A DNA stretch of 64,000 nt, from positions 19,092 through 83,091 of IMG/VR virus record IMGVR_UViG_3300033156_000141. One strand, written 5' to 3'. Source of the DNA: a virus (lineage: Duplodnaviria; Heunggongvirae; Uroviricota; Caudoviricetes). The position numbers were made by a program, and so were the translations under genes. Shown one piece after another: positions 3,057-63,217 of the stretch. The notes under the pieces were generated by a model that saw nothing but the letters and a program-made list of their open reading frames with translations, did not search any database and was not told where the DNA came from. Position 1 is the first letter of the stretch, and every line of letters starts with the position of its first letter.

Positions 3057-3069
3057 GATAGTTACTATC
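3057..3069. repeat. GATAGTTACTATC palindrome copy
   Basis: Perfect 13-bp palindrome directly after the terminase stop. Confidence 0.8.
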
Positions 3070-3341
3070 TTAGAGAGGACTCTGAGAATTCTTATGAGAA
3101 AGCTTAGTAAATCAGATTCGTTTATTTTTTATTTCAATAGGTACTGCTCATGATATAGTGTTTCTATTGTCTAAATTAAAGAGACTTCTAGAAGATAGTA
3201 ACTAACTCGGAATATCATTTGTACATATTACTTATACATTTTAAGTCCAGGTATCTATTTCTCTTCTCTTCTCTTCCTTTTCTTATTCGTTTATTTCTCA
3301 ATACGCTTATATAATTCTATTGCATAAAAAAAAGAATTGGT

Positions 3342-4106
3342 TTATAGCTGTTGAGCTTCGGCTAATCGGCATATTTCAGTTATCATTTCTTCCTTATTGA
3401 TTATCTCAATGTGTTCATTACGTTCTATTGTTTCAACATAGATCCTTAAGAGATGTCTTTTAGCTTCATCGTTCATCTTTGAGTATGCAACTGTTTTAAA
3501 TTTCCAAAATTTAGCATAGATGTTTGTCTTGAATCCATGATGCTTTTCAACCATATTTTCAATTGGATGCCATTTTTCAGTATTACAAAATGTTATCTCT
3601 GATCTCTCGGGAAGCTTTGGGTTAAATTGTGTATCAACTAAACAAATCGGATTTGCTGGCATAAATTTTTTTAGATGTATCATAGCTGTTAGGATTGAAG
3701 CTTTTGTTTGATCCTTGATATAATAAAGATATAGTTTTTTGTCTACCTTTAAGCTCACAAAATATCGTTTAACTGATCTCTTATGTTTGCCCCTTTGAGA
3801 TCTAAAGCTTATCTCTGTGATGTCCATATAGCAATTAGCTTTAGTCGCTAAATGTGTATTGATTCTTTCAACTTTTTTCTTGTGTTCTCTACAGAAGTCT
3901 TTATATTGTTTGTGTATGTTCTTATCTCTTAAGCCTAGTCGCTTTGCATGTCTGTATATCGTTGAGGGGTCAAATTTTAATCCATAGAGTTTTTTAATTT
4001 CTCTTGCTATTTCTCTATAGCTCATTCCATTTTCTTCTAACCAAATTCTCATCTGTTCCTTACTTATGTGTATTTCTCTCGGTCTTGCCATTTTACGTTT
4101 CACCAT
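3342..4106 (-). CDS. HTH-domain mobile nuclease-like ORF (homing-endonuclease-like or transposase-like)
   Basis: Only convincing minus-strand gene. N-terminal HTH (MSYREIAREIKKLYGLKFDPSTIYRHAKRLGLRDK) is paralogous to the HTH of ORFs 29187..29870 and 31119..31652. Flanked by 12-bp inverted repeats TCTATTGCATAA (~3317) and TTATGCAATAGA (~4221). Confidence 0.4.
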   Translation of the reverse strand: MVKRKMARPREIHISKEQMRIWLEENGMSYREIAREIKKLYGLKFDPSTIYRHAKRLGLRDKNIHKQYKDFCREHKKKVERINTHLATKANCYMDITEISFRSQRGKHKRSVKRYFVSLKVDKKLYLYYIKDQTKASILTAMIHLKKFMPANPICLVDTQFNPKLPERSEITFCNTEKWHPIENMVEKHHGFKTNIYAKFWKFKTVAYSKMNDEAKRHLLRIYVETIERNEHIEIINKEEMITEICRLAEAQQL

Positions 4107-4240
4107 TTCGTTTTTGCTTATCCATAGATCATAAGGTATATTTAAGACTTTGGGTATTATCGGAATAAAATCTTAAGCTGATTATGTATTTTTCAACATA
4201 ATTATATAAGCATATTGAATTATGCAATAGACTTAATAAA

Positions 4241-4269
4241 GCTGTTGCATAACCCTAAAACTTATAAAG
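4241..4269 (+). promoter_or_regulatory. promoter repeat copy 1 (partial operator + TATA box CTTATAAAG)
   Basis: Matches TGTTGCATAACCC-N-CTTATAAA consensus shared by 9 intergenic copies; ~30 nt upstream of the gene start. Confidence 0.55.
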
Positions 4270-4299
4270 AGACTTGTCTAGTTGAGAATTGTGATTAAA

Positions 4300-4596
4300 A
4301 TGTTGAGTAGAAAATACTATAAGGCTATAGCTGGGATATTAAGGGTTTCATCTAATAAAAAGGAAATAGTAAAGCGACTATGTAGATACTTTGAGCTAGA
4401 TAATCCTAGATTTGATAAAAACAAATTCCTAGAAGAAGTCTATGGATACAAGACTCCTGATTACTGTGCAGAGAATGACTGTAGCTACTATTTTGAATTT
4501 GGAGAATGTAGATGCTTTGCTCCATGTGAAAAATGTGGAAGAACTACTCTTCACATTAATACTAAGTGCTCTATCTGTGGAACTCCATTGAAGTAA
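4300..4596 (+). CDS. small protein with C-terminal zinc ribbon (CEKCGRT...CSICGT)
   Basis: ORF 4282..4596; first ATG at 4300. Confidence 0.5.
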   Translation: MLSRKYYKAIAGILRVSSNKKEIVKRLCRYFELDNPRFDKNKFLEEVYGYKTPDYCAENDCSYYFEFGECRCFAPCEKCGRTTLHINTKCSICGTPLK

Positions 4597-4644
4597 TTGC
4601 AACAACCTTACTAAGTATGTTGCAAAACCCTTAAGCTTATATAG
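4596..4644 (+). promoter_or_regulatory. promoter repeat copy 2: palindromic operator TTGCAACA-N13-TGTTGCAA + BRE/TATA (CTTATATAG)
   Basis: ATTGCAACAACCTTACTAAGTATGTTGCAAAACCCTTAAGCTTATATAG; gene start 4675. Confidence 0.65.
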
Positions 4645-4674
4645 TGATATACTAACCTAGATTTGGTGATTTAG

Positions 4675-4974
4675 ATGATAACAAGTATCAATCTGTTCAA
4701 ACCTATAGCTACTAAAATAATCAATGAGCTTACACAAGATGCCTATTGGAGATTTACCAAGCTGACAGATAATGATATGACAATGAGATACAACTTCTAT
4801 GATGAGTATGGATTCGAATATAATAGAGATGTCTACATAAGAGCTTCTAAAGACAACAGAAAGCTGATTGTCTATGTAAACAAGAAAGACTTTCCAGCTT
4901 TTGCTAGAAACGAGTATTTAGATGAAGACATTATTAATCTATTTGAGAGCTATCTAGTCGGTTACATCGAATAA
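4675..4974 (+). CDS. hypothetical protein (99 aa)
   Basis: ORF preceded by promoter repeat 2. Confidence 0.5.
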   Translation: MITSINLFKPIATKIINELTQDAYWRFTKLTDNDMTMRYNFYDEYGFEYNRDVYIRASKDNRKLIVYVNKKDFPAFARNEYLDEDIINLFESYLVGYIE

Positions 4975-5022
4975 TGCAACATGCTTATTAAGACTGTTGC
5001 AAAACCCCAAATCTTATAAACC
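4975..5022 (+). promoter_or_regulatory. promoter repeat copy 3
   Basis: TGCAACATGCTTATTAAGACTGTTGCAAAACCCCAAATCTTATAAACC. Confidence 0.65.
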
Positions 5023-5053
5023 TAAATAGTAACTATGATTTGGTGACATCGAA

Positions 5054-5329
5054 ATGATAACAAGAGAATGGTATAGAATAGACGAAATATGTTGTAACAG
5101 CTATTGGGTAACTCATCCTTCAGTTTATTACAAAGATGAATACATCAGAGCTAGCATTGGAATTTATGGAGATCAGGATTTAATCAATAAGAAAATGGAT
5201 AAGATAAAGAAGAAGATGAAAAGCTTAGGGTATGAATATTTCAAGTCCACTAAGCTAAAACCAACTGCATTAGGTAATGAAGTCTTTAGAATAACCTTGT
5301 TCTTTAGAAAACCAAGAGGTAACAAGTAG
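5054..5329 (+). CDS. hypothetical protein (91 aa)
   Basis: ORF preceded by promoter repeat 3. Confidence 0.5.
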   Translation: MITREWYRIDEICCNSYWVTHPSVYYKDEYIRASIGIYGDQDLINKKMDKIKKKMKSLGYEYFKSTKLKPTALGNEVFRITLFFRKPRGNK

Positions 5330-5334
5330 TGAAG

Positions 5335-5484
5335 ATGACTTTAGAAGAGATCTATCAAAGAACAAAAGATACGACTGATAAGGAGAAGGTTGAATATTTC
5401 TTTCAATACTTTCCAGAGAACCAAGCTAGAGCTTTAGTTGCTATGCTTATCATTCAACCGACTATTAGACGTAATCGTCAATAA
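5335..5484 (+). CDS. hypothetical small protein (49 aa)
   Basis: ATG ORF MTLEEIYQRTKDTTDKEKVEYFFQYF... not in the supplied track because of its length; fills the gap before promoter repeat 4. Confidence 0.3.
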   Translation: MTLEEIYQRTKDTTDKEKVEYFFQYFPENQARALVAMLIIQPTIRRNRQ

Positions 5485-5531
5485 TCCAACATCCTTATTA
5501 AGATTGTTGCATAACCCTTAAGCTTATATAG
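5485..5531 (+). promoter_or_regulatory. promoter repeat copy 4
   Basis: TCCAACATCCTTATTAAGATTGTTGCATAACCCTTAAGCTTATATAG. Confidence 0.65.
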
Positions 5532-5557
5532 ATGTAGCTTAGTAATTAAAGGTCAAG

Positions 5558-6133
5558 GTGATGTGGATGAGAGTAATAGAGTTAGATGATAATACAATCT
5601 ACATGGACGATGAATCCTTCAAATGCCAAATCGAAGAAGATAAGGACATCTATCTAGGATTGATATGTGAAGCTATTGATTTTAGAGAGATAGACAGTAG
5701 ATTCGATGATGATCCATATCCCGTAGTTGTGGAGACTCAAATCGTAGTAGCTCCAAGATCTCTAGATAGTAACTATCTTGAAAGAGCTAATGAAGGAGTA
5801 GATCTTGAGCTAAACAATGATGAAATTAAAGTCTATGTGTCCTACCGTTATTCTGGAGGAGTTCCTGTAAACATGGAATCTATCAAGGGATCTGTAACTT
5901 GTGATGTAGATTCTGAAGTTAGAACACAAAAGCATAGACTCTATGGAGAGATTAAGGTTAGACACTTCAGAACAGTAGCTGATGCTCTCAAGTATGCTAA
6001 AACAGTCTATAAACACAATGCTCAAGCTGTATTTGGTTTAGTAGGATTCTATCTTGATAGAACATTAAACCTAATAGGGACTACAGGATGGGACATAATA
6101 AATCTACAAGCTAATAATGTCGATTATATGTAG
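5558..6133 (+). CDS. hypothetical protein (191 aa)
   Basis: ORF preceded by promoter repeat 4; followed by a T10 run. Confidence 0.5.
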   Translation: MMWMRVIELDDNTIYMDDESFKCQIEEDKDIYLGLICEAIDFREIDSRFDDDPYPVVVETQIVVAPRSLDSNYLERANEGVDLELNNDEIKVYVSYRYSGGVPVNMESIKGSVTCDVDSEVRTQKHRLYGEIKVRHFRTVADALKYAKTVYKHNAQAVFGLVGFYLDRTLNLIGTTGWDIINLQANNVDYM

Positions 6134-6151
6134 TCTTTTTTTTTTCCTATT

Positions 6152-6198
6152 TTACAACAAGCTTATTAAGTATGTTGCATAACCCCAAGCTTTATAAG
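6152..6198 (+). promoter_or_regulatory. promoter repeat copy 5
   Basis: TTACAACAAGCTTATTAAGTATGTTGCATAACCCCAAGCTTTATAAG directly after an oligo-T terminator. Confidence 0.65.
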
Positions 6199-6230
6199 TC
6201 TAGTTACTAACTATGGTTCGGTGAAATCGG

Positions 6231-6674
6231 ATGTTTGGACTACTTGAAATGTTGGGATTAGCTAGTCAAGTAAAAACAGAGAATATCAAGAAATTCTATT
6301 TTAAGGGACTAGAAGCTACAATAACAGAGTCTAGTGATCCCTCAAAGACCGTTGAGATAGTAATAAGGAAAGAATGGAAATACACAGGATTTGAAAACAT
6401 GGAAGAAGCTCTAGAGTTTGCTGGGGAAAAGACAGCTGAACTTAGCTCTCTTAATGAGCTAAAGCCTATACTAGAGAAAGTCTCTGATCTACTGAGAGAA
6501 TACAACATCAGCTTTGATGAGTTTCTAAAGATAGCTAAGGAAGCTCTTGATGAGAAGATAGAGAGACCTAATCTTCCATTACCACCAAATTTTTTATGGA
6601 CATCAGAACCAGAGAACGAACAAGATATATCGTCTAGTGAAGCTTCTGAACATGAGGATTCAGAAGCTTCCTAG
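6231..6674 (+). CDS. hypothetical protein with acidic/Ser-rich C-terminus (147 aa)
   Basis: ORF preceded by promoter repeat 5. Confidence 0.5.
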   Translation: MFGLLEMLGLASQVKTENIKKFYFKGLEATITESSDPSKTVEIVIRKEWKYTGFENMEEALEFAGEKTAELSSLNELKPILEKVSDLLREYNISFDEFLKIAKEALDEKIERPNLPLPPNFLWTSEPENEQDISSSEASEHEDSEAS

Positions 6675-6691
6675 TTTTTTATGTTTGTATT

Positions 6692-6740
6692 TTACAACAC
6701 TCTTACTAAGCTTGTTGCATAACCACAAGTCTTATAAATA
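6692..6740 (+). promoter_or_regulatory. promoter repeat copy 6
   Basis: TTTACAACACTCTTACTAAGCTTGTTGCATAACCACAAGTCTTATAAATAG. Confidence 0.65.
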
Positions 6741-6753
6741 GATAGTAACTATC
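6741..6753. repeat. GATAGTAACTATC palindrome copy
   Basis: Perfect palindrome between promoter repeat 6 and gene start 6776. Confidence 0.8.
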
Positions 6754-6775
6754 TTTGTTCAACGGTGACTAAAAA

Positions 6776-7126
6776 ATGACTCGTAAGGATCTTCCAAGAA
6801 TCTATTATCGTGATTTTGAGATACATCTATTTCAAGACAAGGAAGAAGATAAAACAACCTATGGAGCTAAGATACACTATTATATATGGACAAGTAGAAA
6901 TGAATCCAAAGGAGAAGTAGTAGCTGAAGCTATCGATACAGTTGATGAGCTAGCTCAAGCAATAGAGAACAAGTATGTTCTAGCAAAGATAGCTAAAGTT
7001 CTTGAAGAACATGACATGGATTTACACGACTTTCTATGGAACATTAAAGCACAAGTAGAATTTGCTGGAGCTATACACATAAATCTGAAGAAAGAATCAG
7101 AGCCTGATAGCTCTGATTCTTCTTGA
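6776..7126 (+). CDS. hypothetical protein with acidic Ser/Asp C-terminal tail (116 aa)
   Basis: ORF preceded by promoter repeat 6. Confidence 0.5.
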   Translation: MTRKDLPRIYYRDFEIHLFQDKEEDKTTYGAKIHYYIWTSRNESKGEVVAEAIDTVDELAQAIENKYVLAKIAKVLEEHDMDLHDFLWNIKAQVEFAGAIHINLKKESEPDSSDSS

Positions 7127-7134
7127 TTTTTTTT

Positions 7135-7182
7135 TACAACAAGCTTATTGAGCTTGTTGCAAAATCCAAAGTCTTAAATACT
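7135..7182 (+). promoter_or_regulatory. promoter repeat copy 7
   Basis: TTACAACAAGCTTATTGAGCTTGTTGCAAAATCCAAAGTCTTAAATAC after a T-run. Confidence 0.6.
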
Positions 7183-7185
7183 AAA

Positions 7186-7198
7186 GATAGTAACTATC
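7186..7198. repeat. GATAGTAACTATC palindrome copy
   Basis: Perfect palindrome between promoter repeat 7 and gene 7215. Confidence 0.8.
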
Positions 7199-7214
7199 TT
7201 TCGGTGAAATCGAA

Positions 7215-7625
7215 ATGGTGAAACTAGTAATAGAGTTAGACGATAGCTATAACGGAGATCCAAGCTTCTTTCAGGGACATGGACATGTCTTTGAGAAGGA
7301 AAACTGTGTAGCTTGCTTAGCTGTTGGTTTCTCAATAGACTATCGGGAAACTGTATCAGATATAATCGAAGGTATCAGGGAAGAGCTACCAAATACGGAT
7401 TATGAACCTATAAACGAAGAGCTGTTCAAGAAATATGAAGATGAGATAAGAAATCTATCTGATGAGGATTTTATCAGAGCTTTTAAAGATGCTCTAGAAC
7501 CAAATACAAAGCTAGAGGATAAATTCTTCAGGGATGACTTTGAGATAGACGAAGATATAGACGATGAAATCTATGATCCACCTATGCTATTACTATACTT
7601 CCACATCTATGTAGAGGAAGAATAG
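7215..7625 (+). CDS. hypothetical highly acidic protein (136 aa)
   Basis: ORF preceded by promoter repeat 7. Confidence 0.5.
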   Translation: MVKLVIELDDSYNGDPSFFQGHGHVFEKENCVACLAVGFSIDYRETVSDIIEGIREELPNTDYEPINEELFKKYEDEIRNLSDEDFIRAFKDALEPNTKLEDKFFRDDFEIDEDIDDEIYDPPMLLLYFHIYVEEE

Positions 7626-7647
7626 CTACTATCTTTTTTTTTATTTT

Positions 7648-7694
7648 TCAACAAGCTTACTAAGATTGTTGCATAACCTTAAAGCTTATAAATA
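7648..7694 (+). promoter_or_regulatory. promoter repeat copy 8
   Basis: TTCAACAAGCTTACTAAGATTGTTGCATAACCTTAAAGCTTATAAATAC after a T-run. Confidence 0.65.
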
Positions 7695-7726
7695 CTTTAG
7701 TTGCTATCTCTTTCAAACATTAGGAG

Positions 7727-7966
7727 ATGATAGAATTGGATAAGAGAAAATTTGTAAGTCCATTAAGGATTTCAGATGGAGACTATCTTATTGAAATAGC
7801 TGACGTTAGTGAAAAAGCTGATGAAAAGAAGTATGCCATAGCTATTTGGGAGTTTAGAGTCTATGGAGATGGATTCAAGAGTATCAATGAAGCTCTTAAC
7901 AATGCCTTAGCTACTGTTGAAAAGTTAAGGTTTCAGGAGGAGCTGAACTTTGGAACAACGGACTAA
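7727..7966 (+). CDS. hypothetical protein (79 aa)
   Basis: ORF preceded by promoter repeat 8. Confidence 0.5.
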   Translation: MIELDKRKFVSPLRISDGDYLIEIADVSEKADEKKYAIAIWEFRVYGDGFKSINEALNNALATVEKLRFQEELNFGTTD

Positions 7967-8105
7967 ACCACTAAAATGGAAAAGATGTAGCAATCCTAAC
8001 TGTAGAGCTAGGAATGAAGCTGAATTGACAAGAGATGACTATTGCTCTCTTTGTGGTTCAGAACTTGTTGAAGTGAAGAGCTATCAATTCATAGACTACA
8101 GATAG
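7950..8105 (+). CDS. small zinc-ribbon protein (TTG start)
   Basis: SD AGGAGG 8 nt upstream of TTG; translation LEQRTKPLKWKRCSNPNCRARNEAELTRDDYCSLCGSELVEV...; overlaps the end of 7727..7966 in the +1 frame. Confidence 0.35.
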   Translation: MEQRTKPLKWKRCSNPNCRARNEAELTRDDYCSLCGSELVEVKSYQFIDYR

Positions 8106-8113
8106 TTACTATC
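8101..8113. repeat. GATAGTTACTATC palindrome copy followed by T9
   Basis: Perfect palindrome + oligo-T, terminator-like. Confidence 0.8.
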
Positions 8114-8127
8114 TTTTTTTTTAAGAT

Positions 8128-8176
8128 ATTGCAACAAGCTTATTAAGGTTGTTTCATAATCCAAAGTTTTATAAAT
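8128..8176 (+). promoter_or_regulatory. promoter repeat copy 9
   Basis: ATTGCAACAAGCTTATTAAGGTTGTTTCATAATCCAAAGTTTTATAAATC. Confidence 0.6.
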
Positions 8177-8217
8177 CCCAAATCCTTAATCATAGAACAC
8201 CAAAGGAGAGAACAGAT

Positions 8218-9867: not shown

Positions 9868-10167
9868 ATGTCAATGTATGTTATTGATGAGAAAGCTTCA
9901 GTTAATCTCATTATTGGTAATGTGATTTCTGATTCAGTAGCTGAATCTGATAAGCATAATATCTACTTATTCATTCCTGAAAAGAACATGGTAGATGATG
10001 ATACTGTTATTGTAAGATTTAGAGGAGAGCTTATTGAAGAGGACTTATTCTCATTAGTCTTGAGACTATTAGAGCATGAGTCAATTCACATAGCTATTAG
10101 TCGTAATGTTTCAAATCTTGTATCACATGACTATGATAAAGTCTCTCCTTATGTTGATGGAATATAG
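9868..10167 (+). CDS. hypothetical protein (99 aa)
   Basis: ORF; overlapping stop/start context ATAGATG. Confidence 0.45.
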   Translation: MSMYVIDEKASVNLIIGNVISDSVAESDKHNIYLFIPEKNMVDDDTVIVRFRGELIEEDLFSLVLRLLEHESIHIAISRNVSNLVSHDYDKVSPYVDGI

Positions 10168-10180
10168 ATAGTAACTATCT

Positions 10181-10411
10181 ATGGAGATGAAAAGCTTGAA
10201 TGAAAAGGAATATGAACTTCTAGAAAGATGTCTTATAGCTTCAGAGCTTGAACCAACTAGAGTAATAAGAGTATTGAAAATAGTCAAAAGAAGAGTAGGG
10301 ACAGAGAAGCTAAAGGAAATGTTCATTAAATATCCAAAATTCATCGAATTAGCTCACCGTATATCTCCATTTCTATTTGAAAAATCATGGCGAGAATCTG
10401 GATATGAGTAA
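10181..10411 (+). CDS. hypothetical protein (76 aa)
   Basis: ORF with SD GGAGATG. Confidence 0.45.
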   Translation: MEMKSLNEKEYELLERCLIASELEPTRVIRVLKIVKRRVGTEKLKEMFIKYPKFIELAHRISPFLFEKSWRESGYE

Positions 10412-10922
10412 GATAGTAACTATCTTTTAAAGAGCTTATGGAGATGATTGTTTATCTTATCATGGATATATCATTGTTCTCACCTCCTTTACATAAGTTG
10501 GATGAAAGTGAGAGGATGATAGAGACATGAACCATTATGGTGATGAGTGTCTCTCCTATCTGTTTGTCCTAGAAAGGATGAATGATAATGGTTAGAATAG
10601 TAGAAACTTGGAAATGGAGGGATACAAAGAAAAGGATAAACTATACTTGCTTTAAAACTGATGATGGCAAACAATACATGATTTACACAGATGGAATGAG
10701 AGCTTTGATAAAGGAAATTGAGCCTTCTCACAAAGCTTACAGACATAGTTGAGGAGAATTGATATAAATTATGAAAAGATATAGTATCATGGTCATCCCT
10801 AGTATTGTTGGCAATGTGAAGGCATATCTATCTATGAGAAGTGCCTTCAGTTGCACAGGGAGAGAAAAGGGATGACAAACCATTAAACCTTCTTATCTCT
10901 CCCTGATGGAGATGATTAAAAA

Positions 10923-12794: not shown

Positions 12795-13106
12795 ATGGTG
12801 ATCCATTTGCAGAAAAAGTATCTACGAGAGTATCTTGAGAAAAGAGGTATTAAGGTCAAACATCCATTTATAGTAACTAAAATATTCATAGCTTTGAAGG
12901 ATATAGCTAGTAGAGATGAGATGTTCTCTTGTCATGATTTAATAAGTTATTTTGAGAGGGATCAACCATCGATAGTTACTATCGGTAGCTATCTTTCTAG
13001 AATAGAGAAGCTAGGTATCATAGAAAAGGTTGAGAACACAAGATATCCATACTTTTACAGAGTCAAGGATTCATTTCAAGAGTTTATGAAAAATCTAGGT
13101 TTATAG
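12795..13106 (+). CDS. putative winged-helix transcription regulator
   Basis: FIALKDIASRDEMFSCHDLISYFERDQPSIVTIGSYLSRIEKLGIIEKVEN resembles ArsR/MarR-like wHTH recognition helix + wing. Confidence 0.45.
   Translation: MVIHLQKKYLREYLEKRGIKVKHPFIVTKIFIALKDIASRDEMFSCHDLISYFERDQPSIVTIGSYLSRIEKLGIIEKVENTRYPYFYRVKDSFQEFMKNLGL
12971..12983. repeat. GATAGTTACTATC palindrome copy inside a coding sequence
   Basis: Perfect palindrome encoding SIVTIG within ORF 12795..13106. Confidence 0.8.
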
Positions 13107-13759: not shown

Positions 13760-13765
13760 AGAAAG

Positions 13766-13778
13766 ATAGTAACTATCT
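13766..13778. repeat. GATAGTAACTATC palindrome copy
   Basis: Perfect palindrome; followed by the further palindromes GCTAGCTAGC and GGGCTTAAGCCC upstream of the Ubl gene. Confidence 0.8.
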
Positions 13779-28220: not shown

Positions 28221-28222
28221 AT

Positions 28223-36294: not shown

Positions 36295-37087
36295 AGTGTT
36301 ATCGATACATTTTACTACTAAATGCAATTTCAATTGTCCATTCTGCTATGTTCATAAGTCTACTATAGAGAAAGATGTAGATTGGTTCTGTGATCTAATA
36401 AAGGCAGCTAGTGAATATAATATTCCACAGATAGCTATAGGTGGTGGAGAACCACTATTATTTCCAAAGATAGTAACTAAACTAGCTAAAACAGCTAAGC
36501 ACTGTGATATGAATGTATCTCTTACTACAAATGGTTCAGTAATAAATTCAGAAGTAATTGAATCATTAGAATACGTAGATTTGGTATCAGTATCGGTGGA
36601 TCATCATAAGGTTAAGTCTAATGGTTCAATACGAAACATAGCTAATACAATAAATATCTTATCTAATTTATCTAAGTTGGAAGTAGGAGTAAACTATCTT
36701 ATTCTAGATAAGATAGCTCTTGGAATCATGCCTTTAGTCTTTAATTATCTAAAGAAAGAAGGACTAAAATTCTATGCCTTGCAACCTAAATTCTACGAGC
36801 TGAATTATGAAGTTAGTGAACTAAAGAGAACCATTGAAATTTCAAGTGTATTATTTGACTTGTATGTGGATGAAAGTACAGCTCTTGAAATTGGGAAGAT
36901 AAAGCAATGTTGTCATGGTAGCAAGATAATATCAGTATTTCCAGATGGTTCAGTATCTCCATGTTCATTTAGTCCATCTATAGCTAAGATTAAAAAACCA
37001 CATGAAATACTAAATATAATAGATAGTTACTATCCTATGAAGGGCTATTCCAAATGTCCCTACATCATTAGGAGTCTTGAAACATGA
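36281..37087 (+). CDS. radical SAM enzyme with C-terminal SPASM/twitch-like Cys cluster
   Basis: CNFNCPFC (CxxxCxxC), IGGGEPLL, C-terminal CCHGSKIISVFPDGSVSPCSF...CPY. Confidence 0.7.
   Translation: MIMIEVLSIHFTTKCNFNCPFCYVHKSTIEKDVDWFCDLIKAASEYNIPQIAIGGGEPLLFPKIVTKLAKTAKHCDMNVSLTTNGSVINSEVIESLEYVDLVSVSVDHHKVKSNGSIRNIANTINILSNLSKLEVGVNYLILDKIALGIMPLVFNYLKKEGLKFYALQPKFYELNYEVSELKRTIEISSVLFDLYVDESTALEIGKIKQCCHGSKIISVFPDGSVSPCSFSPSIAKIKKPHEILNIIDSYYPMKGYSKCPYIIRSLET
37022..37034. repeat. GATAGTTACTATC palindrome copy inside the radical SAM CDS
   Basis: Perfect palindrome encoding DSYYP. Confidence 0.8.
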
Positions 37088-37523: not shown

Positions 37524-37534
37524 ACAGATCTAAA

Positions 37535-41230: not shown

Positions 41231-41545
41231 ATGGATAAGAATGAGTTTACTAATGAACTTGAGGATCTATTGAAACGTATACACAAACACATAGAGAAAA
41301 ATCATAAAATTTCATTTGCAGCTGATCACAATGGAGAGATGAAATATTACACATTTGAGTTCTCCGATGAAAAAGGATATAGTCCAGAGCTAGCTGATAT
41401 GTTCATTAATCGGCTTAGAGAACTAACACTTCAAGCATATGAGATTCTAACAAAGGAGAAGATAGATGAGAATCCTGATCCTATGACTGTGATAGTTACT
41501 ATCTTACAGCTTGTAGCTCACAAATTGGGTGAGACCAAAGAATGA
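41231..41545 (+). CDS. hypothetical protein (104 aa)
   Basis: ORF with SD GGAGGTGA. Confidence 0.45.
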   Translation: MDKNEFTNELEDLLKRIHKHIEKNHKISFAADHNGEMKYYTFEFSDEKGYSPELADMFINRLRELTLQAYEILTKEKIDENPDPMTVIVTILQLVAHKLGETKE

Positions 41546-43990: not shown

Positions 43991-44464
43991 GTGATAGAAA
44001 TGAGAAGTGAAGAAATACGTAAACAGATTAAGAAACTTCATGAAAGACTAGACACTATTGATAAGACAGAATACAAATTACGATCTGAGTATCTTGATAT
44101 TAAGTCCAGAATAGCTGAGCTAGAGGAGTCACTAAAAGAAGCTCTCTACGAAGAGAATCCAGATAAATATTGGAAATGTCAGGACTGTGGTAAGATATTT
44201 GAAGGAAGATGTCTATGGAAAGAGCCCATATGTTCTGTATGTCGTAACAAGAGAAAAATGAAAGTTACAGAAGAGAGACTGAAGAAGAAATTGCTAGGAG
44301 CTACTGTTATTGACTTGAGTGTTCATGATGAATTCTACATTGATGATGGATTACACTCAATTACACTAAGACTTAAGAATGGAAAGATAGTTACTATCAG
44401 TGCTTATATTGATGGTGATTATGAGTATACAGCTGTTATGTATGCAGAAGACGATAGTAACTAA
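43991..44464 (+). CDS. coiled-coil + zinc-ribbon protein (157 aa)
   Basis: CQDCGK...CSVCRNK. Confidence 0.45.
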   Translation: MIEMRSEEIRKQIKKLHERLDTIDKTEYKLRSEYLDIKSRIAELEESLKEALYEENPDKYWKCQDCGKIFEGRCLWKEPICSVCRNKRKMKVTEERLKKKLLGATVIDLSVHDEFYIDDGLHSITLRLKNGKIVTISAYIDGDYEYTAVMYAEDDSN

Positions 44465-47331: not shown

Positions 47332-47676
47332 TTGGTGATCTATATGAAGAAAATCTGGAAAGAGATAGTAAAGTTCAATAATATTTATTATCCATACTGG
47401 AGATTTAGAAAAGGACCAATGTTCTTTGCTGTAGCTCTAGCTGGTGAAACAGGAGAACTCTGTAATAGACTAAAGAAGCTATATGGTGGTGGTACTAATA
47501 TAGAGATAGTTACTATCGAAGACATAGGAGAAGAGGCATTTGACATTATAGTGTATCTTGTACTACTTCTGGAATCAATAGGAATCTCAGTAGATAAATT
47601 TCAGGAAATAGCTGATAAAAAGCTCAAAGTTCTCTATGATAGAATGAGATCTATCAGAGGTGATACTAGTGACTAA
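47332..47676 (+). CDS. MazG-like nucleoside triphosphate pyrophosphohydrolase
   Basis: ALAGETGELCNRLKK...EEAFDIIVYLVLL...K.KVLYDR = all-alpha NTP-PPase EExxE/D motifs. Confidence 0.65.
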   Translation: MVIYMKKIWKEIVKFNNIYYPYWRFRKGPMFFAVALAGETGELCNRLKKLYGGGTNIEIVTIEDIGEEAFDIIVYLVLLLESIGISVDKFQEIADKKLKVLYDRMRSIRGDTSD

Positions 47677-53127: not shown

Positions 53128-53329
53128 GATAGTTACTAAGTCTGGATACAAGATAATACAGGAAACATATAGAGTATGGAAGATCATATCTCCTAAAGGA
53201 AAGTTATACTATGTATGGTTGTGTAACAATAAGCTTGTATGTTCATGTCCTGCTTATTCGAAATATAGAGGACATTGTAAACACATAATGATGATGAATT
53301 TGTATGTATTTAAGGAGGGAATGAAATGA
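53117..53329 (+). CDS. SWIM zinc-finger protein
   Basis: CSCPAYSKYRGHCKHIMMM = CxCxnCxH SWIM signature. Confidence 0.55.
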   Translation: MVAEIVTKSGYKIIQETYRVWKIISPKGKLYYVWLCNNKLVCSCPAYSKYRGHCKHIMMMNLYVFKEGMK

Positions 53330-58113: not shown

Positions 58114-59022
58114 ATGTCAGAGAACACTACACCTGAGAAGCTTCTAGATTTTCTAGATGAAGAATGGGAGATACTCTATATTGATCCTAAAGAGCTAAAA
58201 GGAGTATCTCCCTTCAATGCTCGTAAACAAGAACCAGAAGTAGATCTGGATTCTCTAGTAATATCAATGAGAGAGACTGGAATAAACACTGAACCTATTA
58301 TAGTCGATGAAGATCTATATGTAGTAGCTGGTGGTAGACGATATAGAGCTGCACTACTAGCTGAGCTTTCTAGAGTATGGTGTCTAAAGAAACGTATGTC
58401 AGAGAATGAAAAGATAGTACGTTCATTCCTAGAGAATGAGCTAAAGTACGATATGACTATGGAAGACAGATATCAATTTGCAAAGATACTTAGAGACAAG
58501 GGACTATCTGTAGAACAAATATCACTTATCACTGGTAGATCTCCAAGTACTATAAGAGAGTGGTTGGGACTACACAAGGTACCAGATGTACTAAAACAAG
58601 CTGAGAAAGAAGAGGAGTACAAGAAGCTTCCAGTTAAGAAGAAACAGCTACTAAGAAAAAGTCTCCAAACACTAGATGTGTTCAAGGAGAATCCTGAAGT
58701 AGCTGTAAAGACACTTGAGATAGCTAATGAAGCTCCATTGAGACTTGTGGAAGAGCTAGTACAAGATGCAAAGATGGGACATCTGGATGTGAATCCAGAG
58801 ATTAAGCTAGAGAAATACAAGCAGATAAGTGAAGAGCTTAGAAAGCCAAAGAATGAACGTAAATATCTAATGAGACCAGTGAGACTTCCATCAGATCTAA
58901 TAAGCAAGCTAATAACCATAGCTAAGTTCGACTTTCCTAATGATACACTGGATGACATAGTAGCTCAGATACTATGGGAGTATGTAAACAAAAGAGCTAA
59001 AGAGCTAGGACTGATGTTCTAA
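58114..59022 (+). CDS. ParB-like nuclease domain (ParB/Srx) protein
   Basis: VSPFNARKQ...LYVVAGGRRYRAALLA = ParB N-terminal GxRR box. Confidence 0.65.
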   Translation: MSENTTPEKLLDFLDEEWEILYIDPKELKGVSPFNARKQEPEVDLDSLVISMRETGINTEPIIVDEDLYVVAGGRRYRAALLAELSRVWCLKKRMSENEKIVRSFLENELKYDMTMEDRYQFAKILRDKGLSVEQISLITGRSPSTIREWLGLHKVPDVLKQAEKEEEYKKLPVKKKQLLRKSLQTLDVFKENPEVAVKTLEIANEAPLRLVEELVQDAKMGHLDVNPEIKLEKYKQISEELRKPKNERKYLMRPVRLPSDLISKLITIAKFDFPNDTLDDIVAQILWEYVNKRAKELGLMF

Positions 59023-61632: not shown

Positions 61633-61820
61633 TTTATATGCCTGGACCAGTTGAGAAGAATGGAAAGCTGTACTGTCCAATATGTGGAGCTGAAGTAGTG
61701 GAGAATGTGGTTAGATACTACAAGATAACAGATGGAGTCTTTAAAAGTGAAAAGATAGTTACTGAAATAACATATGAATGTAAGAAATGTGGATGGAGCT
61801 ACTGGATCAAAGATGAGTAG
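61629..61820 (+). CDS. small zinc-ribbon protein (CPICGA...CKKCGW)
   Basis: Two CxxC pairs. Confidence 0.45.
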   Translation: MIYMPGPVEKNGKLYCPICGAEVVENVVRYYKITDGVFKSEKIVTEITYECKKCGWSYWIKDE

Positions 61821-62172
61821 CTACGATAGTATGATAGGTGGAATAAATGTCAATATAACTCTTCCTAGAGATATGTTTATCAAGAGAGTGGTTAAGTGTC
61901 CATACTGTGAACAGATGACAGCTAGGCTTAGACAGACAGGTCAATTTATTGAACAGTACTATTGTAGCAACTGTAAGTTCAAGTTCTATCCTAATACTCC
62001 TACTCATCTATTGACTGATTATGCCATAGAATATTATGAAGAGATAGAACGTGAATACAACAAAGTACGTAATGAAATAGAGAAGCTGAATGAGTATCTT
62101 TTGCAATACAAGGATATACTTGACAAAGCTGGTACAAATGTGAAGTCTATATTGCTCAAGGAGAGACTATAG
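61774..62172 (+). CDS. zinc-ribbon protein with C-terminal-tail motif (ends ...KSILLKERL)
   Basis: CPYCEQ...CSNCKF; paralog of 62174..62506; the tail matches the LLAKEI family. Confidence 0.5.
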   Translation: MNVRNVDGATGSKMSSYDSMIGGINVNITLPRDMFIKRVVKCPYCEQMTARLRQTGQFIEQYYCSNCKFKFYPNTPTHLLTDYAIEYYEEIEREYNKVRNEIEKLNEYLLQYKDILDKAGTNVKSILLKERL

Positions 62173-62173
62173 T

Positions 62174-62506
62174 TTGAACAATGATGCTTTGAACTTTATA
62201 GAAAAAACTAAGAAGCTTCTTGAGAAATATCCAAAGACTAGGAAGTGTCCATTCTGTGGAAGTACGTCTTATCTAGAAACTATAGGCTTTATTGTCAGTG
62301 ATGTTGGAAGATACTTCTGTCCTGAATGTAAGTTTTCATTTCAAGCTGACTTGGATGATGATGAGATAATCAAGAAAGCTATTGAGTACTATAATAGACT
62401 TGAGAAGAACTATGAGAACTATGTTCAAATGGCTAAATACAACAAGCATTTAATGAACAAAGCTAGTGATGAGCTGAAATCCTATTTATTGGCAAAGAGA
62501 TTATGA
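62174..62506 (+). CDS. zinc-ribbon protein with C-terminal-tail motif (ends ...KSYLLAKRL)
   Basis: CPFCGS...CPECKF; paralog of 61774..62172. Confidence 0.5.
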   Translation: MNNDALNFIEKTKKLLEKYPKTRKCPFCGSTSYLETIGFIVSDVGRYFCPECKFSFQADLDDDEIIKKAIEYYNRLEKNYENYVQMAKYNKHLMNKASDELKSYLLAKRL

Positions 62507-62507
62507 C

Positions 62508-63209
62508 ATGAAAGGTGATACAAGTTTGAAGATAGGAGCTTTTCAGGGATTGAGTCTGATTGAATATCCTGAACATCTATCATGTATTGTCTTTACTATT
62601 GGATGTCAGTTTAGATGTGGTTATTGTCAGAATCCAGATCTAGCTCTATCTCGTATTAGTCCAATAGACTCTAAAATAGTTCTTGAGAAGATACATAATA
62701 AACGTAAGTATCTTGATGGATGTGTGATTACTGGAGGTGAACCTTTACTACAACAAGATATTGAGGATTTCTGTAGAATACTCAAGAACTATGGATATGA
62801 TGTTATGATTGAGACCAATGGCTATTTTTATGAAAAGCTTAGAAATCTTATAGAAAACAATCTAGTCGATTATGTTGCAATGGACTATAAAGCTCCAATC
62901 AACAAATATCAAAGAATTGTGAATGTTCCTATAGATATCTCTAGGATCGCAGCTGCTAGGGATCTGATTATGAAGTCTAATATTAAATATGAGTTCAGAA
63001 CCACAGTAGCTAGAGAGATCCTATCTCTAGAGGATCTAGTTCAGATTACAAGAGAAATCAAAAGAGCTGATCTGTATATTATTCAGAATTTTAGAAACCA
63101 ATCTGTTCTAGATCCAGAGTTCAAATATTATAAACCTTATACCACTAAAGAGCTTGAAAAGATAAAGCCATATTTATTAGAGAACGTTAAGAATGTGGTT
63201 ATAAGATAG
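62508..63209 (+). CDS. radical SAM activase-family protein (NrdG/PflA-like; anaerobic RNR-activating-protein-like)
   Basis: GLSLIEYPEHLSCIVFTIGCQFRCGYCQNPDL (Cx3CxYCxN), VITGGEPLLQ. Confidence 0.6.
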   Translation: MKGDTSLKIGAFQGLSLIEYPEHLSCIVFTIGCQFRCGYCQNPDLALSRISPIDSKIVLEKIHNKRKYLDGCVITGGEPLLQQDIEDFCRILKNYGYDVMIETNGYFYEKLRNLIENNLVDYVAMDYKAPINKYQRIVNVPIDISRIAAARDLIMKSNIKYEFRTTVAREILSLEDLVQITREIKRADLYIIQNFRNQSVLDPEFKYYKPYTTKELEKIKPYLLENVKNVVIR

Positions 63210-63217
63210 TTACTATC
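63205..63217. repeat. GATAGTTACTATC palindrome copy
   Basis: Perfect palindrome overlapping the stop of 62508..63209. Confidence 0.8.

What the first reader, a model, noticed from the sequence alone, without database searches (positions are those of the whole stretch)
3057..63217. 13-bp palindrome GATAGT(A/T)ACTATC massively over-represented (>=15 perfect and ~20 near-perfect copies), in both intergenic and coding sequence
Perfect copies are at about 3057, 6741, 7186, 8101, 10167, 10412, 12971, 13766, 21787, 22754, 37022, 41491, 44386, 47505 and 63205. A random 13-mer is expected well under once in 64 kb. Many copies sit just after stop codons, some followed by T-runs. Several are embedded in ORFs, where they encode DSNYL, IVTI or SYYP. 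A DNA- or RNA-level function is therefore maintained against coding constraints. Candidate roles are a binding site for a dimeric viral or host protein, a methyltransferase target, a short terminator hairpin (GATAG-TAA-CTATC), or a recombination or packaging signal. Viruses normally deplete palindromes, so this enrichment stands out.
Basis: seen in the sequence. Interest (0 to 1): 0.55.

Follow-up and report, generated by a model that had tools for sequence, protein, structure and literature searches.

The report
Lineage-specific palindrome punctuating viral gene cassettes
A 13-base palindrome is kept by selection at dozens of places in this uncultured (probably archaeal) virus genome. It sits just after early promoters and at gene ends, exactly where gene cassettes differ between related viruses, and sister lineages carry their own palindrome of the same design. 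It is therefore most likely a protein-recognition "punctuation mark" on the DNA.

Summary
GATAGTWACTATC occurs 16 times (0 expected), and there are 44 copies with up to 2 mismatches (4.5 expected). The core TAGTWACTA occurs 46 times (1.5-3 expected).

The window is part of a novel virus of about 108 kb with archaeal-type replication genes. A 75-90% identical relative keeps the motif better than its flanks (95% against 81%), including at synonymous sites.

The copies behave as a duplex-DNA element:
- the central base is A or T equally often;
- half-sites alone are not enriched;
- variants show no compensatory pattern;
- the RNA hairpin is weak.

Nine of the 16 perfect copies lie at gene junctions. 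Two of these start 0 and 3 nt after the TATA-like box of early promoter cassettes; most of the rest lie at or within 7 nt of stop codons. Eight of the nine junctions coincide with homology breakpoints against the relative (p = 3e-4). One gene is flanked by two copies where the relative has one.

Three sister lineages each have a different over-represented palindrome (5-6 bp arms, 3-nt centre) in the same kinds of places.

Best reading: it is the recognition site of a co-evolving virus-encoded DNA-binding protein that marks and regulates cassette boundaries. The reader protein is not identified. The candidates are a family-specific HTH protein with an integrase-like fold and a ParB-like protein.

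The parts
3057..3069 (.). Perfect copy, 6 nt after the TerL stop codon, between convergent TerL and the minus-strand gene.
   Evidence: It is 13/13 conserved in the relative and in the Woesearchaeota-binned contig L131. Sister lineages have their own palindrome 0-2 nt after the TerL stop.
5765..5777 (.). Perfect copy inside ORF 5558-6133 (DSNYL).
   Evidence: The relative has two substitutions here.
6741..6753 (.). Perfect copy starting directly after the TATA-like box (CTTATAAATA) of an early promoter cassette, upstream of the GGTGA ribosome-binding site.
   Evidence: A homology block ends 8 nt away.
7186..7198 (.). Perfect copy 3 nt after the TATA-like box of the next early cassette.
8101..8113 (.). 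Perfect copy that contains the TAG stop of ORF 7950-8105, followed by T9 and the next promoter cassette.
   Evidence: A block ends 6 nt away.
10167..10179 (.). Perfect copy; left boundary of the single-gene cassette 10181-10411.
   Evidence: A block ends 1 nt away.
10181..10411 (+). 76-aa ORF present in the window and absent from the relative, flanked by two motif copies; the relative has one copy at the joint.
10412..10424 (.). Perfect copy directly after the stop codon; right boundary of the cassette.
12971..12983 (.). Perfect copy inside ORF 12795-13106 (IVTI).
   Evidence: 13/13 conserved.
13765..13777 (.). Perfect copy 5 nt after a stop codon; the relative has a 550-bp insertion at this joint.
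21788..21800 (.). Perfect copy inside the 631-aa ORF.
   Evidence: 13/13 conserved, flanks 82%.
22753..22765 (.). Perfect copy whose first base ends the TAG stop of the 631-aa ORF; the relative has a 587-bp insertion just after it.
37022..37034 (.). Perfect copy near the 3' end of a radical-SAM ORF (DSYYP), 50 nt before the next start codon.
41491..41503 (.). Perfect copy inside ORF 41231-41545, 39 nt before the next start codon.
44386..44398 (.). Perfect copy inside ORF 43991-44464.
47505..47517 (.). Perfect copy inside ORF 47332-47676.
63205..63217 (.). Perfect copy that contains the TAG stop of radical-SAM ORF 62508-63209; homology to the relative resumes at the motif, and the gene before it is absent there.
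1679..1691 (.). 2-mismatch copy GTTAGTAACTATG at the junction before TerL. It holds the upstream TAG stop and the TerL ATG.
   Evidence: The same variant is in L173. L170 has its own palindrome at this junction.
1902..1914 (.). 1-mismatch copy inside TerL (YSYYH), with frozen synonymous sites.
7621..7633 (.). 2-mismatch copy at a stop codon followed by T8; the relative has a perfect copy here.
5025..5037 (.). 2-mismatch copy 2 nt after the TATA-like box of an early cassette. Further degenerate copies sit at the same cassette position near 6201 and 7697.
4207..8177 (+). Nine early promoter cassettes: T-run, then TGCAACA-N13-TGTTGCA, then a TATA-like box, then in 5 of 9 the palindrome or a degenerate form of it, then GGTGA, then ATG.
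3342..4106 (-). The only minus-strand gene. It encodes a family-specific protein with an N-terminal transposase-type HTH and a predicted RNase-H-like (integrase/transposase-like) core. Candidate reader of the motif.
58114..59022 (+). ParB-like protein (ParB N-terminal domain with recognisable box I-III motifs, plus an HTH) next to PolB. Alternative candidate reader.

Best explanation
The palindrome is a cis-acting site on duplex DNA, read as a whole by a symmetric (dimeric), sequence-specific DNA-binding protein encoded by the virus.

Its copies punctuate the genome in two ways. Some sit between the TATA-like box and the ribosome-binding site of early promoters, which is an operator position. 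Others sit at or a few bases after stop codons, which is a boundary or roadblock position. A minority are written into coding sequence.

Binding there most likely switches early transcription units off and insulates them from one another (inferred). The same short conserved sites flank many small genes, so they also act as the joints at which gene cassettes are gained, lost and swapped between related viruses (shown by comparison).

The reader protein co-evolves with the site, which is why each sister lineage has its own palindrome of the same design. My first candidate is the family-specific protein of the single minus-strand gene (3342-4106), which has an HTH and a predicted integrase-like fold. 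The second is the ParB-like protein (58114-59022).
For: Enrichment and selection (shown):
- 16 perfect copies against 0-0.04 expected.
- Motif columns are 94.9% conserved against 80.7% for the flanks in a 75-90% identical relative. The excess also holds for 1-mismatch and 2-mismatch copies.
- Synonymous positions of the TerL copy are frozen only in the motif lineage.

Duplex, whole-site recognition (shown or inferred):
- Half-sites outside the palindrome occur at expectation.
- Mismatches fall at positions 1, 2, 12 and 13, and the inner 9 bp are nearly invariant, including the would-be loop bases T6 and A8.
- The centre is A in 8 copies and T in 8 (5 and 6 in the relative).
- The flanks are symmetric, A-rich on the left and T-rich on the right.
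- Variants show no compensatory pattern.

Position (shown):
- 9 of 16 perfect copies lie in about 8% non-coding DNA.
- In 5 of 9 early cassettes the copy (2 perfect, 3 degenerate) starts 0-5 nt after the TATA-like box.
- The stop codon lies inside or next to the motif at 13 junctions.

Lineage-specific equivalents (shown):
- L170 has TCCAG-YWG-CTGGA 5 times in 11.9 kb (0.03 expected).
- L174 has TCCTA-CTA/TAG-TAGGA 6 times in 12.3 kb (0.04 expected).
- L172 has ATATCY-CTC/GAG-RGATAT 5 times (0.07 expected), plus 4 more in L040 from the same virus lineage.
- L170 and L174 have a copy directly after the TerL stop. In L172 copies follow early cassettes. Asymmetric centres occur in both orientations.

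Cassette joints (shown):
- 8 of 9 junctions with a perfect copy coincide with a homology breakpoint, against 25 of 99 without (p = 2.8e-4).
- The association holds within the early region: 6 of 6 against 5 of 22 (p = 0.0012).
- A block ends within 8 nt of the motif at 7 of these junctions.
- Gene 10181-10411 is flanked by two copies where the relative has one.

Candidate readers exist. In three genomes that carry GATAG-type copies, the minus-strand protein keeps an 'STxYRxA' recognition helix even at 34-37% overall identity. The ATATC genome has 'ELVYYYA' plus a 6-aa deletion.
Against: - No binding or expression data exist, so the regulatory consequence is inferred from position alone.
- Neither candidate reader co-occurs cleanly with a palindrome. 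The L171/L049 lineage has an intact ParB-like protein but no comparable palindrome in the 44 kb sampled.
- The gene in the minus-strand slot of L171 is unrelated to the HTH family. So is the C-terminal 133 aa that can be seen of the slot gene in L170, although L170 has a palindrome.
- Seven perfect copies lie inside ORFs far from any recognisable promoter.
- In L174 the orientation of the asymmetric centre follows the direction of the nearby genes (n = 6). That would fit a transcript-level or direction-dependent element.
- A host protein as reader is not excluded.
Confidence: 0.42

Rival explanations
1. Dedicated cassette-shuffling system. The palindromes are recombination sites: two abutted short inverted repeats with a 3-bp spacer, like the IRL-IRR junctions of IS circles. 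They would be cut and joined by the virus's own DDE-type enzyme, the product of the minus-strand gene, which moves single-gene cassettes in and out.
For: - Breakpoints sit within 1-8 nt of the motif at 7 junctions, and the association is strong.
- One gene is flanked by two direct copies of the palindrome, and the relative has one copy at the empty joint.
- The minus-strand protein has a transposase-type HTH.
- Three acidic residues are invariant in the five full-length homologues: D95 on the predicted first strand, D158 after the fourth strand, and E187.
- The protein family is confined to this virus group and is syntenic next to TerL.
- The sites are lineage-specific.
Against: - Copies inside essential ORFs (TerL, the 631-aa protein) are conserved, which a cut site would not favour.
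- Differences between the two genomes at the motif itself are point substitutions, not clean insertions or excisions, and there are no target-site duplications.
- Homologous recombination at any conserved repeat gives the same breakpoint pattern, as shown for PeSLs (PMC2839356). The virus has ample general recombination genes: RadA, XPF and VRR-NUC matches and weak RecJ/DHH-like matches.
Confidence: 0.2
2. The sites are parS/OB-like loading sites for the ParB-like CTPase. A KorB-type clamp would load at the dispersed palindromes and silence or organise the genome.
For: - The window encodes a protein that aligns over its ParB N-terminal domain and HTH with chromosomal ParB. It has 'NARK', 'GGRRYRAA' and 'ENELKYDM' at the box I-III positions, followed by the HTH.
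- Its best solved relatives are Spo0J, Noc and ParB.
- By my recollection, KorB of plasmid RK2 reads a 13-bp odd palindrome with a degenerate centre, present in about 12 copies on a 60-kb replicon. Some copies are at promoters and some are far from them. The OB oligonucleotide and the clamp mechanism are described in PMC11790492.
Against: - The ParB-like gene is intact in the L171/L049 lineage, which shows no comparable palindrome in 44 kb.
- No ParA or KorA-like partner was recognised among the roughly 60 ORFs scanned.
- Site density is highest 45-55 kb from the gene.
- Box II has G in place of the usual E, and box III has K in place of R.
Confidence: 0.13
3. The element works in the transcript. 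A short hairpin at cistron ends would serve for termination, 3'-end protection or endonucleolytic processing.
For: - Many copies lie right at stop codons, and a few are followed by T8-T9.
- Sister lineages keep the 5+3+5 stem-loop design while changing the sequence.
- In L174 the centre orientation follows gene direction.
- In the L172 lineage the stem extends to 10 bp, at -9.3 kcal/mol.
Against: - The hairpin is weak here, at -1.5 to -5.5 kcal/mol, and z-scores are modest.
- The would-be loop bases are as conserved as the stem, and variants break pairs without compensation.
- Centres X and rc(X) are used about equally in same-direction genes (8 and 8 here; CTC six times and GAG three times in L172/L040).
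- Only 3 of 16 copies have T4 or longer after them, and the A-rich and T-rich flanks are symmetric.
- Promoter-proximal copies lie 0-5 nt after the TATA-like box, where they would be wholly or partly untranscribed (inferred).
- There is no Rfam match.
Confidence: 0.1
4. The site is read by a host protein, such as a host regulator, nucleoid protein or nuclease. The lineage-specific palindromes would then reflect different hosts.
For: Closely related viruses (TerL 79% identical) differ in palindrome. No viral reader is established.
Against: A scan of 185,579 species genomes for AGATAGTWACTATCT returned only isolated single hits in unrelated taxa in its first 120 rows. The one exception was a viral contig binned in a Woesearchaeota MAG.
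Confidence: 0.08
5. The enrichment is a by-product of composition, codon usage, one dispersed long repeat, or a methyltransferase/restriction target.
For: The genome is AT-rich. Some 2-mismatch copies are coding coincidences. Two DNA methyltransferase genes are present.
Against: - Shuffles and Markov models give at most 0.04 copies.
- The flanks are unrelated beyond about 3 bp.
- Only 2 perfect copies lie in the promoter cassettes.
- The motif is conserved above its flanks.
- A 13-bp enriched site is not how restriction or modification targets behave (general knowledge).
Confidence: 0.02

Closest known systems
PeSLs (promoter-early stem-loops) of T4-type phages (PMC2839356, PMC4122927)
   Same: Both are short conserved regulatory elements that flank small ORFan genes in hyperplastic early regions. 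Insertions, deletions and replacements between close relatives end at the elements. One case is a gene flanked by two elements in one phage and deleted in the other, leaving one element, exactly as at 10167/10412 here.
   Different: PeSLs are composites of about 50 bp, made of a sigma-70 promoter plus a GC-rich terminator stem-loop, and they are confined to intergenic DNA. Here the unit is a free-standing 13-15 bp AT-rich palindrome. Most copies are not joined to a promoter cassette, 7 of 16 lie in ORFs, and each sister lineage has a different sequence.
Conserved TATA-box-plus-inverted-repeat motif before the early ORFs of haloarchaeal virus HGTV-1 (as described in PMC3950731)
   Same: It is an archaeal tailed virus, and among reference phages its PolB gave the fullest match to the PolB of this window. 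About 20 early cassettes carry a TATA-like box and a genome-specific palindrome, CTCCTCGTGCCACGAGGAG, which I verified in NC_021328. A role in regulation and shuffling has been proposed.
   Different: In the 90 kb of HGTV-1 that I read, the palindrome occurs only inside the promoter cassettes, in one orientation and one context. Here it is dispersed over at least 64 kb, at gene ends and inside ORFs, and in either orientation.
Stoperators of Cluster A mycobacteriophages (PMC9283540, PMC6550527)
   Same: Both are dozens of 12-14 bp sites dispersed over the whole genome, many in very short intergenic gaps or at stop codons. Stoperators are bound by one phage protein that both represses the early promoter and blocks elongation. 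Site and protein co-vary between subclusters.
   Different: Stoperators are asymmetric, are read by a monomer, and have an orientation tied to the direction of transcription. The site here is palindromic and orientation-free. No homologue of the gp71-type repressor and no integrase was recognised in the window.
Conserved inverted repeats (CIRs) of Streptomyces phage phiC31 (from memory: Ingham et al. 1994, Nucleic Acids Res 22:821; not checked here)
   Same: These are highly conserved copies of a perfect inverted repeat scattered through intergenic regions of a phage genome. They are bound by the phage repressor.
   Different: The CIRs are 17 bp long, in a temperate actinophage, with a known repressor. 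As far as I recall they are not found inside ORFs and are not linked to cassette boundaries.
KorB-OB of plasmid RK2, and ParB-parS / Noc-NBS generally (PMC11790492)
   Same: By my recollection OB is a 13-bp odd palindrome with a degenerate centre base (TTTAGCSGCTAAA), present in about a dozen dispersed copies on a replicon of about 60 kb. It is read by a ParB-family HTH protein. A ParB-family protein is encoded here.
   Different: No binding has been shown. A sister lineage with the ParB-like gene lacks a palindrome. No ParA or KorA partner was seen.

Membership tests
PeSL-type mobile regulatory cassette | Composite of an early promoter and an adjacent stem-loop that is an effective terminator. 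| tested here: not met
   Only 2 perfect and about 3 degenerate copies are joined to the promoter cassettes. The stem is AT-rich, at -1.5 to -5.5 kcal/mol, and only 3 of 16 copies are followed by T4 or longer.
PeSL-type mobile regulatory cassette | Elements flank ORFans in hyperplastic regions, and indels between close relatives end at them. | tested here: met
   8 of 9 motif junctions are breakpoints against 25 of 99 others. Within the early region the figures are 6 of 6 against 5 of 22. Gene 10181-10411 is flanked by two copies.
Stoperator (Cluster A mycobacteriophage) | Many dispersed copies of a 12-14 bp site, including sites in short intergenic gaps. | tested here: met
Stoperator (Cluster A mycobacteriophage) | Asymmetric site whose orientation follows the direction of transcription. 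| tested here: not met
   The site is palindromic, and the centre is A in 8 copies and T in 8 although all the ORFs that carry or flank copies are on the + strand.
Stoperator (Cluster A mycobacteriophage) | Bound by the phage immunity repressor. | not testable with these tools
   No binding data exist, and no repressor family was recognised.
ParB-parS / KorB-OB | A ParB-family protein with the CTP-binding boxes and an HTH is encoded by the replicon. | tested here: met
   ParB_N plus HTH. Alignment with chromosomal ParB shows boxes I-III with two substitutions. The best PDB hits are Spo0J, Noc and ParB.
ParB-parS / KorB-OB | Protein and palindromic site occur together across relatives. | tested here: inconclusive
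   The L049/L171 genome has the protein but no comparable palindrome in the 44 kb sampled. Full genomes were not available.
ParB-parS / KorB-OB | Specific binding and CTP-dependent loading at the site. | not testable with these tools
   Needs biochemistry.
Intrinsic (hairpin plus U-tract) terminator | Stable GC-rich stem followed by a U-run. | tested here: not met
REP / MITE-like mobile palindromic element | Extragenic location, and presence/absence polymorphism of the element itself. | tested here: not met
   7 of 16 copies lie in ORFs. Differences from the relative are substitutions, not clean insertions of the element.
N4-type hairpin promoter (5-7 bp stem, 3-nt loop) | Orientation of the hairpin fixes the direction of transcription. 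| tested here: not met
   The architecture fits, but both centre orientations are used equally in a window transcribed almost entirely in one direction. A virion RNA polymerase gene was not specifically searched for, and none was seen among the ORFs scanned.
DDE transposase/integrase (for the 3342-4106 protein) | RNase-H-like catalytic core with a conserved D, D, E triad behind an N-terminal HTH. | tested here: inconclusive
   [not shown]

The most novel reading that the evidence does not exclude
A group of large tailed viruses, probably of DPANN (Woesearchaeota-like) archaea, carries a built-in gene-cassette exchange system. A domesticated DDE-type recombinase with an HTH, encoded next to the terminase, would recognise a lineage-specific 13-bp palindrome that marks the end of each cassette, and would use it to excise, insert and swap single genes. 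This would be functionally like an integron, but with a different enzyme and minimal sites.
Probability: 0.18. Interest if true: 0.85.

Novelty: new variant of a known kind. Interest (0 to 1): 0.62.

Why it matters
How the mosaic genomes of viruses exchange single genes so neatly is an old question. Short conserved "linker" sequences at module boundaries were postulated decades ago, and PeSLs are one documented case.

Here a minimal 13-bp element has three properties at once:
- it is maintained by selection, even inside genes;
- it sits at cassette boundaries with base-pair precision;
- sister lineages replace it with a different sequence of the same architecture.

That combination points to a co-evolving protein-site pair, not to passive homology alone. 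It gives a concrete pair of proteins and an oligonucleotide to test. The virus group is otherwise unstudied and may infect DPANN archaea, for which almost no regulatory or recombination biology is known.

Tried and rejected
- Near-identical phage in INPHARED: none. tRNA genes: none. Rfam families: none.
- Sigma-70 promoter and terminator scan: promoter-like sites fall below the shuffle expectation, and only one motif copy (12971, inside an ORF) is picked up as terminator-like.
- Half-site or monomer model: rejected, because half-sites occur at expectation.
- Host-wide repeat: the genome-contig scan gave isolated hits only, and the ParB-based scan of genomes found nothing.
- Same motif in distant relatives: absent from L040, L049, L171, L172, L174 and L175. 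This led to the finding of lineage-specific palindromes.
- L171/L049 lineage: only a modest excess of TCAGCTGA, mostly inside ORFs, which is not comparable.
- L041 as a test of ParB specificity: its single TCCAGNNNCTGGA is a coding coincidence also present in the relative.
- Short contigs carrying homologues of the HTH protein (L178, L179) and L180 gave too little sequence, or no clear palindrome, for a covariation test.
- Pfam and PHROG scans of about 60 ORFs found mostly ORFans and no classical repressor, integrase or ParA.
- Integron attC analogy: rejected, because no integrase is present and the sites are far shorter.
- Sencilo et al. 2013 (PMC3737338) could not be read, so I checked the HGTV-1 motif directly in the sequence instead.
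- The ParB-like structure model (pLDDT 64) was not taken further.

Full report
**1. The observation**

An exact search finds 16 copies of GATAGTWACTATC.

- Dinucleotide shuffles give none.
- Markov models of order 1-4 predict 0.008-0.04.
- With up to two mismatches there are 44 sites against 4.5 expected.
- The 9-bp core TAGTWACTA occurs 46 times against 1.5-2.9 expected, and its sub-words head every k-mer table from k = 8 to 13.
- The consensus extends weakly and symmetrically to aaaGATAGTWACTATCttt.
- Half-sites outside the full palindrome occur at expectation, so the unit is the whole palindrome.

I used a simple longest-ORF gene model, which gives about 92% coding with nearly all ORFs on the + strand. 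Under it, 9 of the 16 perfect copies are intergenic or touch a stop codon. The other 7 lie in ORFs, only in the two frames that avoid the internal TAG. Only two perfect copies belong to the promoter cassettes.

**2. What the window is**

There is no near match among 50,697 phage records. The window encodes:

- TerL;
- a family-B DNA polymerase whose fullest matches among reference phages are haloarchaeal tailed viruses, and whose nearest cellular relatives are Woesearchaeota and Nanoarchaeota;
- RadA with an N-terminal HhH domain and an intein, and an XPF/ERCC4-HhH nuclease;
- an RNA ligase, two DNA methyltransferases and two radical-SAM proteins;
- a ParB-like protein;
- many ORFans.

Distant relatives carry Alba. 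A 3.1-kb contig of the same lineage is binned in a Candidatus Woesearchaeota MAG. The virus is therefore probably archaeal, and possibly infects DPANN archaea. This is an inference, and binning of a short contig is weak evidence.

The TerL of the window is identical to one on a 109.7-kb contig. A circularly permuted relative of 107.9 kb, IMGVR_UViG_3300033149_001657, is 75-90% identical in nucleotides. I pieced together 75 kb of it.

**3. Selection on the motif**

The relative has 11 perfect copies and 38 copies with up to 2 mismatches in 75 kb. Most are orthologous to copies in the window.

| Copy class | Motif columns identical | Flanks identical | p |
|---|---|---|---|
| Perfect | 94.9% | 80.7% | 6e-4 |
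| 1 mismatch | 90% | 78% | 0.003 |
| 2 mismatches | 89% | 82% | 0.012 |

(All.)

Sites also turn over by point substitution. Copies 5765, 6741 and 7186 have decayed in the relative, while the 1-mismatch copy at 51717 and the 2-mismatch copy at 7621 are perfect there.

Inside TerL, the 1-mismatch copy TAT AGT TAC TAT C encodes YSYYH. It has identical codons in three genomes of the lineage, although the codons around it vary. Sister lineages encode the same YSYY with different codons and have no motif.

Not every near-copy is meaningful. The PolB copy at 59301 uses the same codons in a lineage without the motif.

**4. DNA or RNA?**

Five points favour recognition of the duplex:

- The centre is A in 8 copies and T in 8 (5 and 6 in the relative), although all the ORFs that carry or flank copies are on one strand.
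- Mismatches in near-copies fall at positions 1, 2, 12 and 13. The inner nine bases, including the would-be loop bases T6 and A8, hardly vary.
- Variants break pairs without compensation.
- The A-rich left flank and T-rich right flank mirror each other, and only 3 of 16 copies are followed by T4 or longer.
- The RNA hairpin is worth only -1.5 kcal/mol for the 13-mer, and -2.2 to -5.5 with flanks.

In the early cassettes the copy begins 0-5 nt after the TATA-like box. There it would be partly or wholly untranscribed under either a bacterial or an archaeal promoter geometry (inference). Rfam finds nothing.

**5. Where the copies sit**

- *After early promoters.* In five of nine early cassettes the palindrome follows the TATA-like box directly and precedes GGTGA and the ATG. 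These are two perfect copies (6741, 7186) and degenerate forms at 5025 and near 6201 and 7697. The cassette structure is a T-run, then TGCAACA-N13-TGTTGCA, then CTTATAAATA.
- *At gene ends.* At 13 junctions the stop codon is inside or next to the motif.
  - The TAG at motif positions 3-5 is the stop at 1679, 7621, 8101, 26928 and 63205.
  - A TAG ends on motif base 1 at 10167 and 22753.
  - Variant ends CTAA or CTAG supply the stop at 44453 and 47030.
  - The motif starts directly to 6 nt after the stop at 3057, 10412, 13765 and 53128.
  - The variant ending CTATG supplies the start codon of TerL (1679) and of ORF 11530.
- *Inside ORFs.* There are seven perfect copies, and four of them lie 39-143 nt before the next start codon.

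**6. Cassette boundaries**

I compared 108 gene junctions with the relative.

- Eight of the nine junctions that hold a perfect copy coincide with a break in homology or synteny, against 25 of 99 others (Fisher p = 2.8e-4).
- Within the early region the figures are 6 of 6 against 5 of 22 (p = 0.0012). Elsewhere they are 2 of 2 against 20 of 74.
- At seven junctions the homology block ends 1-8 nt from the motif edge.
- Gene 10181-10411 is flanked by two copies in the window, and the relative has a single copy at the empty joint.
- At 13765 and 22753 the relative has insertions of 550 and 587 bp beside the site. At 63205 a radical-SAM gene present only in the window ends in the motif, and homology resumes there.

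This is the pattern described for PeSL elements of T4-type phages (PMC2839356).

**7. Sister lineages**

Relatives share the arrangement TerL, then a single minus-strand gene, then a run of small early genes. Three of four sampled sister lineages have their own over-represented palindrome of the same build.

| Lineage | TerL identity to window | Palindrome | Copies | Expected |
|---|---|---|---|---|
| L170 | 79% | TCCAG-YWG-CTGGA | 5 in 11.9 kb | 0.03 |
| L174 | 53% | TCCTA-CTA/TAG-TAGGA | 6 in 12.3 kb | 0.04 |
| L172 (with L040, same lineage) | 56% | ATATCY-CTC/GAG-RGATAT | 5 in L172, 4 in L040 | 0.07 (L172) |
| L171/L049 | 59% | none comparable in 44 kb | n/a | n/a |

- L170 and L174 have a copy directly after the TerL stop. 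L172 has only a degenerate version there.
- L170 has one at the junction before TerL, with its TAG centre serving as the stop codon.
- L172 has copies about 14 nt after its early-cassette motif GGCTGTTAAAAAA.
- Asymmetric centres appear as X and as rc(X).

Caveat: in L174 the three CTA/ACT-centred copies lie among + strand genes, and the three TAG-centred copies lie beyond TerL, where minus-strand genes begin. Orientation could therefore follow transcription there (n = 6).

**8. Who reads it?**

There are two candidates.

*(a) The ParB-like protein (58114-59022).*
- It aligns with chromosomal ParB through the CTP-binding boxes and the HTH.
- Its best solved relatives are Spo0J, Noc and ParB.
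- It is intact in the lineage that lacks a palindrome.

*(b) The product of the only minus-strand gene (3342-4106).*
- The family has about six relatives among 1.8 billion representative proteins.
- It keeps its place next to TerL at 41% identity.
- Its N-terminal HTH matches transposase- and resolvase-type families below threshold.
- D95, D158 and E187 are invariant in five homologues.
- In three genomes that carry GATAG-type copies the recognition helix reads (P/R)STxYRxA, even at 34-37% overall identity. In the ATATC genome it reads RELVYYYAK after a 6-residue deletion.
- Against this candidate, the slot gene of L171 is unrelated to the family. So is the visible C-terminal part of the slot gene in L170, which has a palindrome.

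**9. Interpretation**

*Shown:*
- a strongly enriched palindrome of 13-15 bp that is under purifying selection;
- behaviour as a duplex element;
- locations after early promoters, at gene ends and in some ORFs;
- coincidence with cassette boundaries;
- lineage-specific equivalents.

*Inferred:*
- a co-evolving virus-encoded dimeric DNA-binding protein reads it;
- binding regulates or insulates early transcription units;
- the sites serve as recombination joints.

Whether recombination at the sites is passive (homology-driven, as for PeSLs) or catalysed by the integrase-like protein is open. The catalysed alternative is the most novel reading, and I give it about 0.2.

**10. Comparison with known systems**

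- The element works most like PeSLs and like the HGTV-1 TATA-plus-inverted-repeat motif (PMC3950731; verified in the HGTV-1 sequence) in marking cassette boundaries.
- It works most like stoperators (PMC9283540), phiC31 CIRs (from memory) or KorB OB sites (PMC11790492) as a dispersed protein site.
- It fails defining features of each family. It is not a promoter-terminator composite. It is not confined to cassettes. It is not asymmetric or orientation-bound. It is not shown to bind a ParB protein.
- I therefore rate it a new variant of a known kind, in an unstudied virus group.

Noticed in passing
window 4207-8177 (and a weaker copy at 9503): There are nine to ten early promoter cassettes. Each has a preceding T-run, the 7-bp inverted repeat TGCAACA-N13-TGTTGCA, 'ATAACC', a TATA-like CTTATAAATA about 12 nt after TTGCAT (too close for a standard sigma-70 -35/-10 pair), then GGTGA and the ATG. 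This resembles the cassettes of haloarchaeal virus HGTV-1.
   Followed up: partly
window 28223-30508 (intein about 28896-29921) and 53326-55209 (intein about 53655-54549): The DUF2201/VWA-like protein and RadA each carry an intein (Hint/Intein_splicing hits). Both intein-sized segments are missing from the 75-90% identical relative, so intein presence is polymorphic.
   Followed up: partly
[not shown]
   Followed up: yes
L131 (CAYTYH010000073.1, 3.1 kb); window 59059-61632: A contig of this virus lineage is binned in a Candidatus Woesearchaeota MAG, and the nearest cellular PolB homologues are Woesearchaeota and Nanoarchaeota. The host may be a DPANN archaeon.
   Followed up: partly
window 58114-59022: A ParB-like protein with recognisable CTP-binding boxes (GGRRYRAA in place of GERRxRA) and an HTH is encoded directly upstream of PolB. 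No ParA was seen among the ORFs scanned.
   Followed up: partly
window 19485-20306: There is a local rearrangement against the relative. Window 19485-19939 maps about 5 kb away from window 19954-20306 in the relative.
   Followed up: no
window 35205-36294 and 37221-37834: There are two pairs of adjacent paralogous small genes: repeats at 35192/35742 (78% identical) and at 37452/37763 (74% identical).
   Followed up: no
window 26943-30508 and 20858-22753: A MoxR/CobS-like AAA ATPase sits next to a metallopeptidase/VWA-like (DUF2201) protein. The 631-aa protein has as its only phage homologues proteins of Synechococcus phages S-CBWM1 and S-CRM01 and of gut phage Phass-1.
   Followed up: no
L172 12400-13730 and L040: The 128-kb relative has its own early cassette motif (TAAGGCTGTTAAAAAA, at least 3 copies), followed about 14 nt later by its own palindrome. 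In some copies the palindrome extends to a 10-bp stem, AACTATATCT-CTC-AGATATAGTT.
   Followed up: partly
L173 8106-8507 and L178 836-1036: In the lineage with 88% TerL identity, the space after TerL lacks the 13-mer. It carries instead a 9-bp-arm inverted repeat, TTCAACATG-N10-CATGTTGAA, related to the cassette repeat.
   Followed up: no
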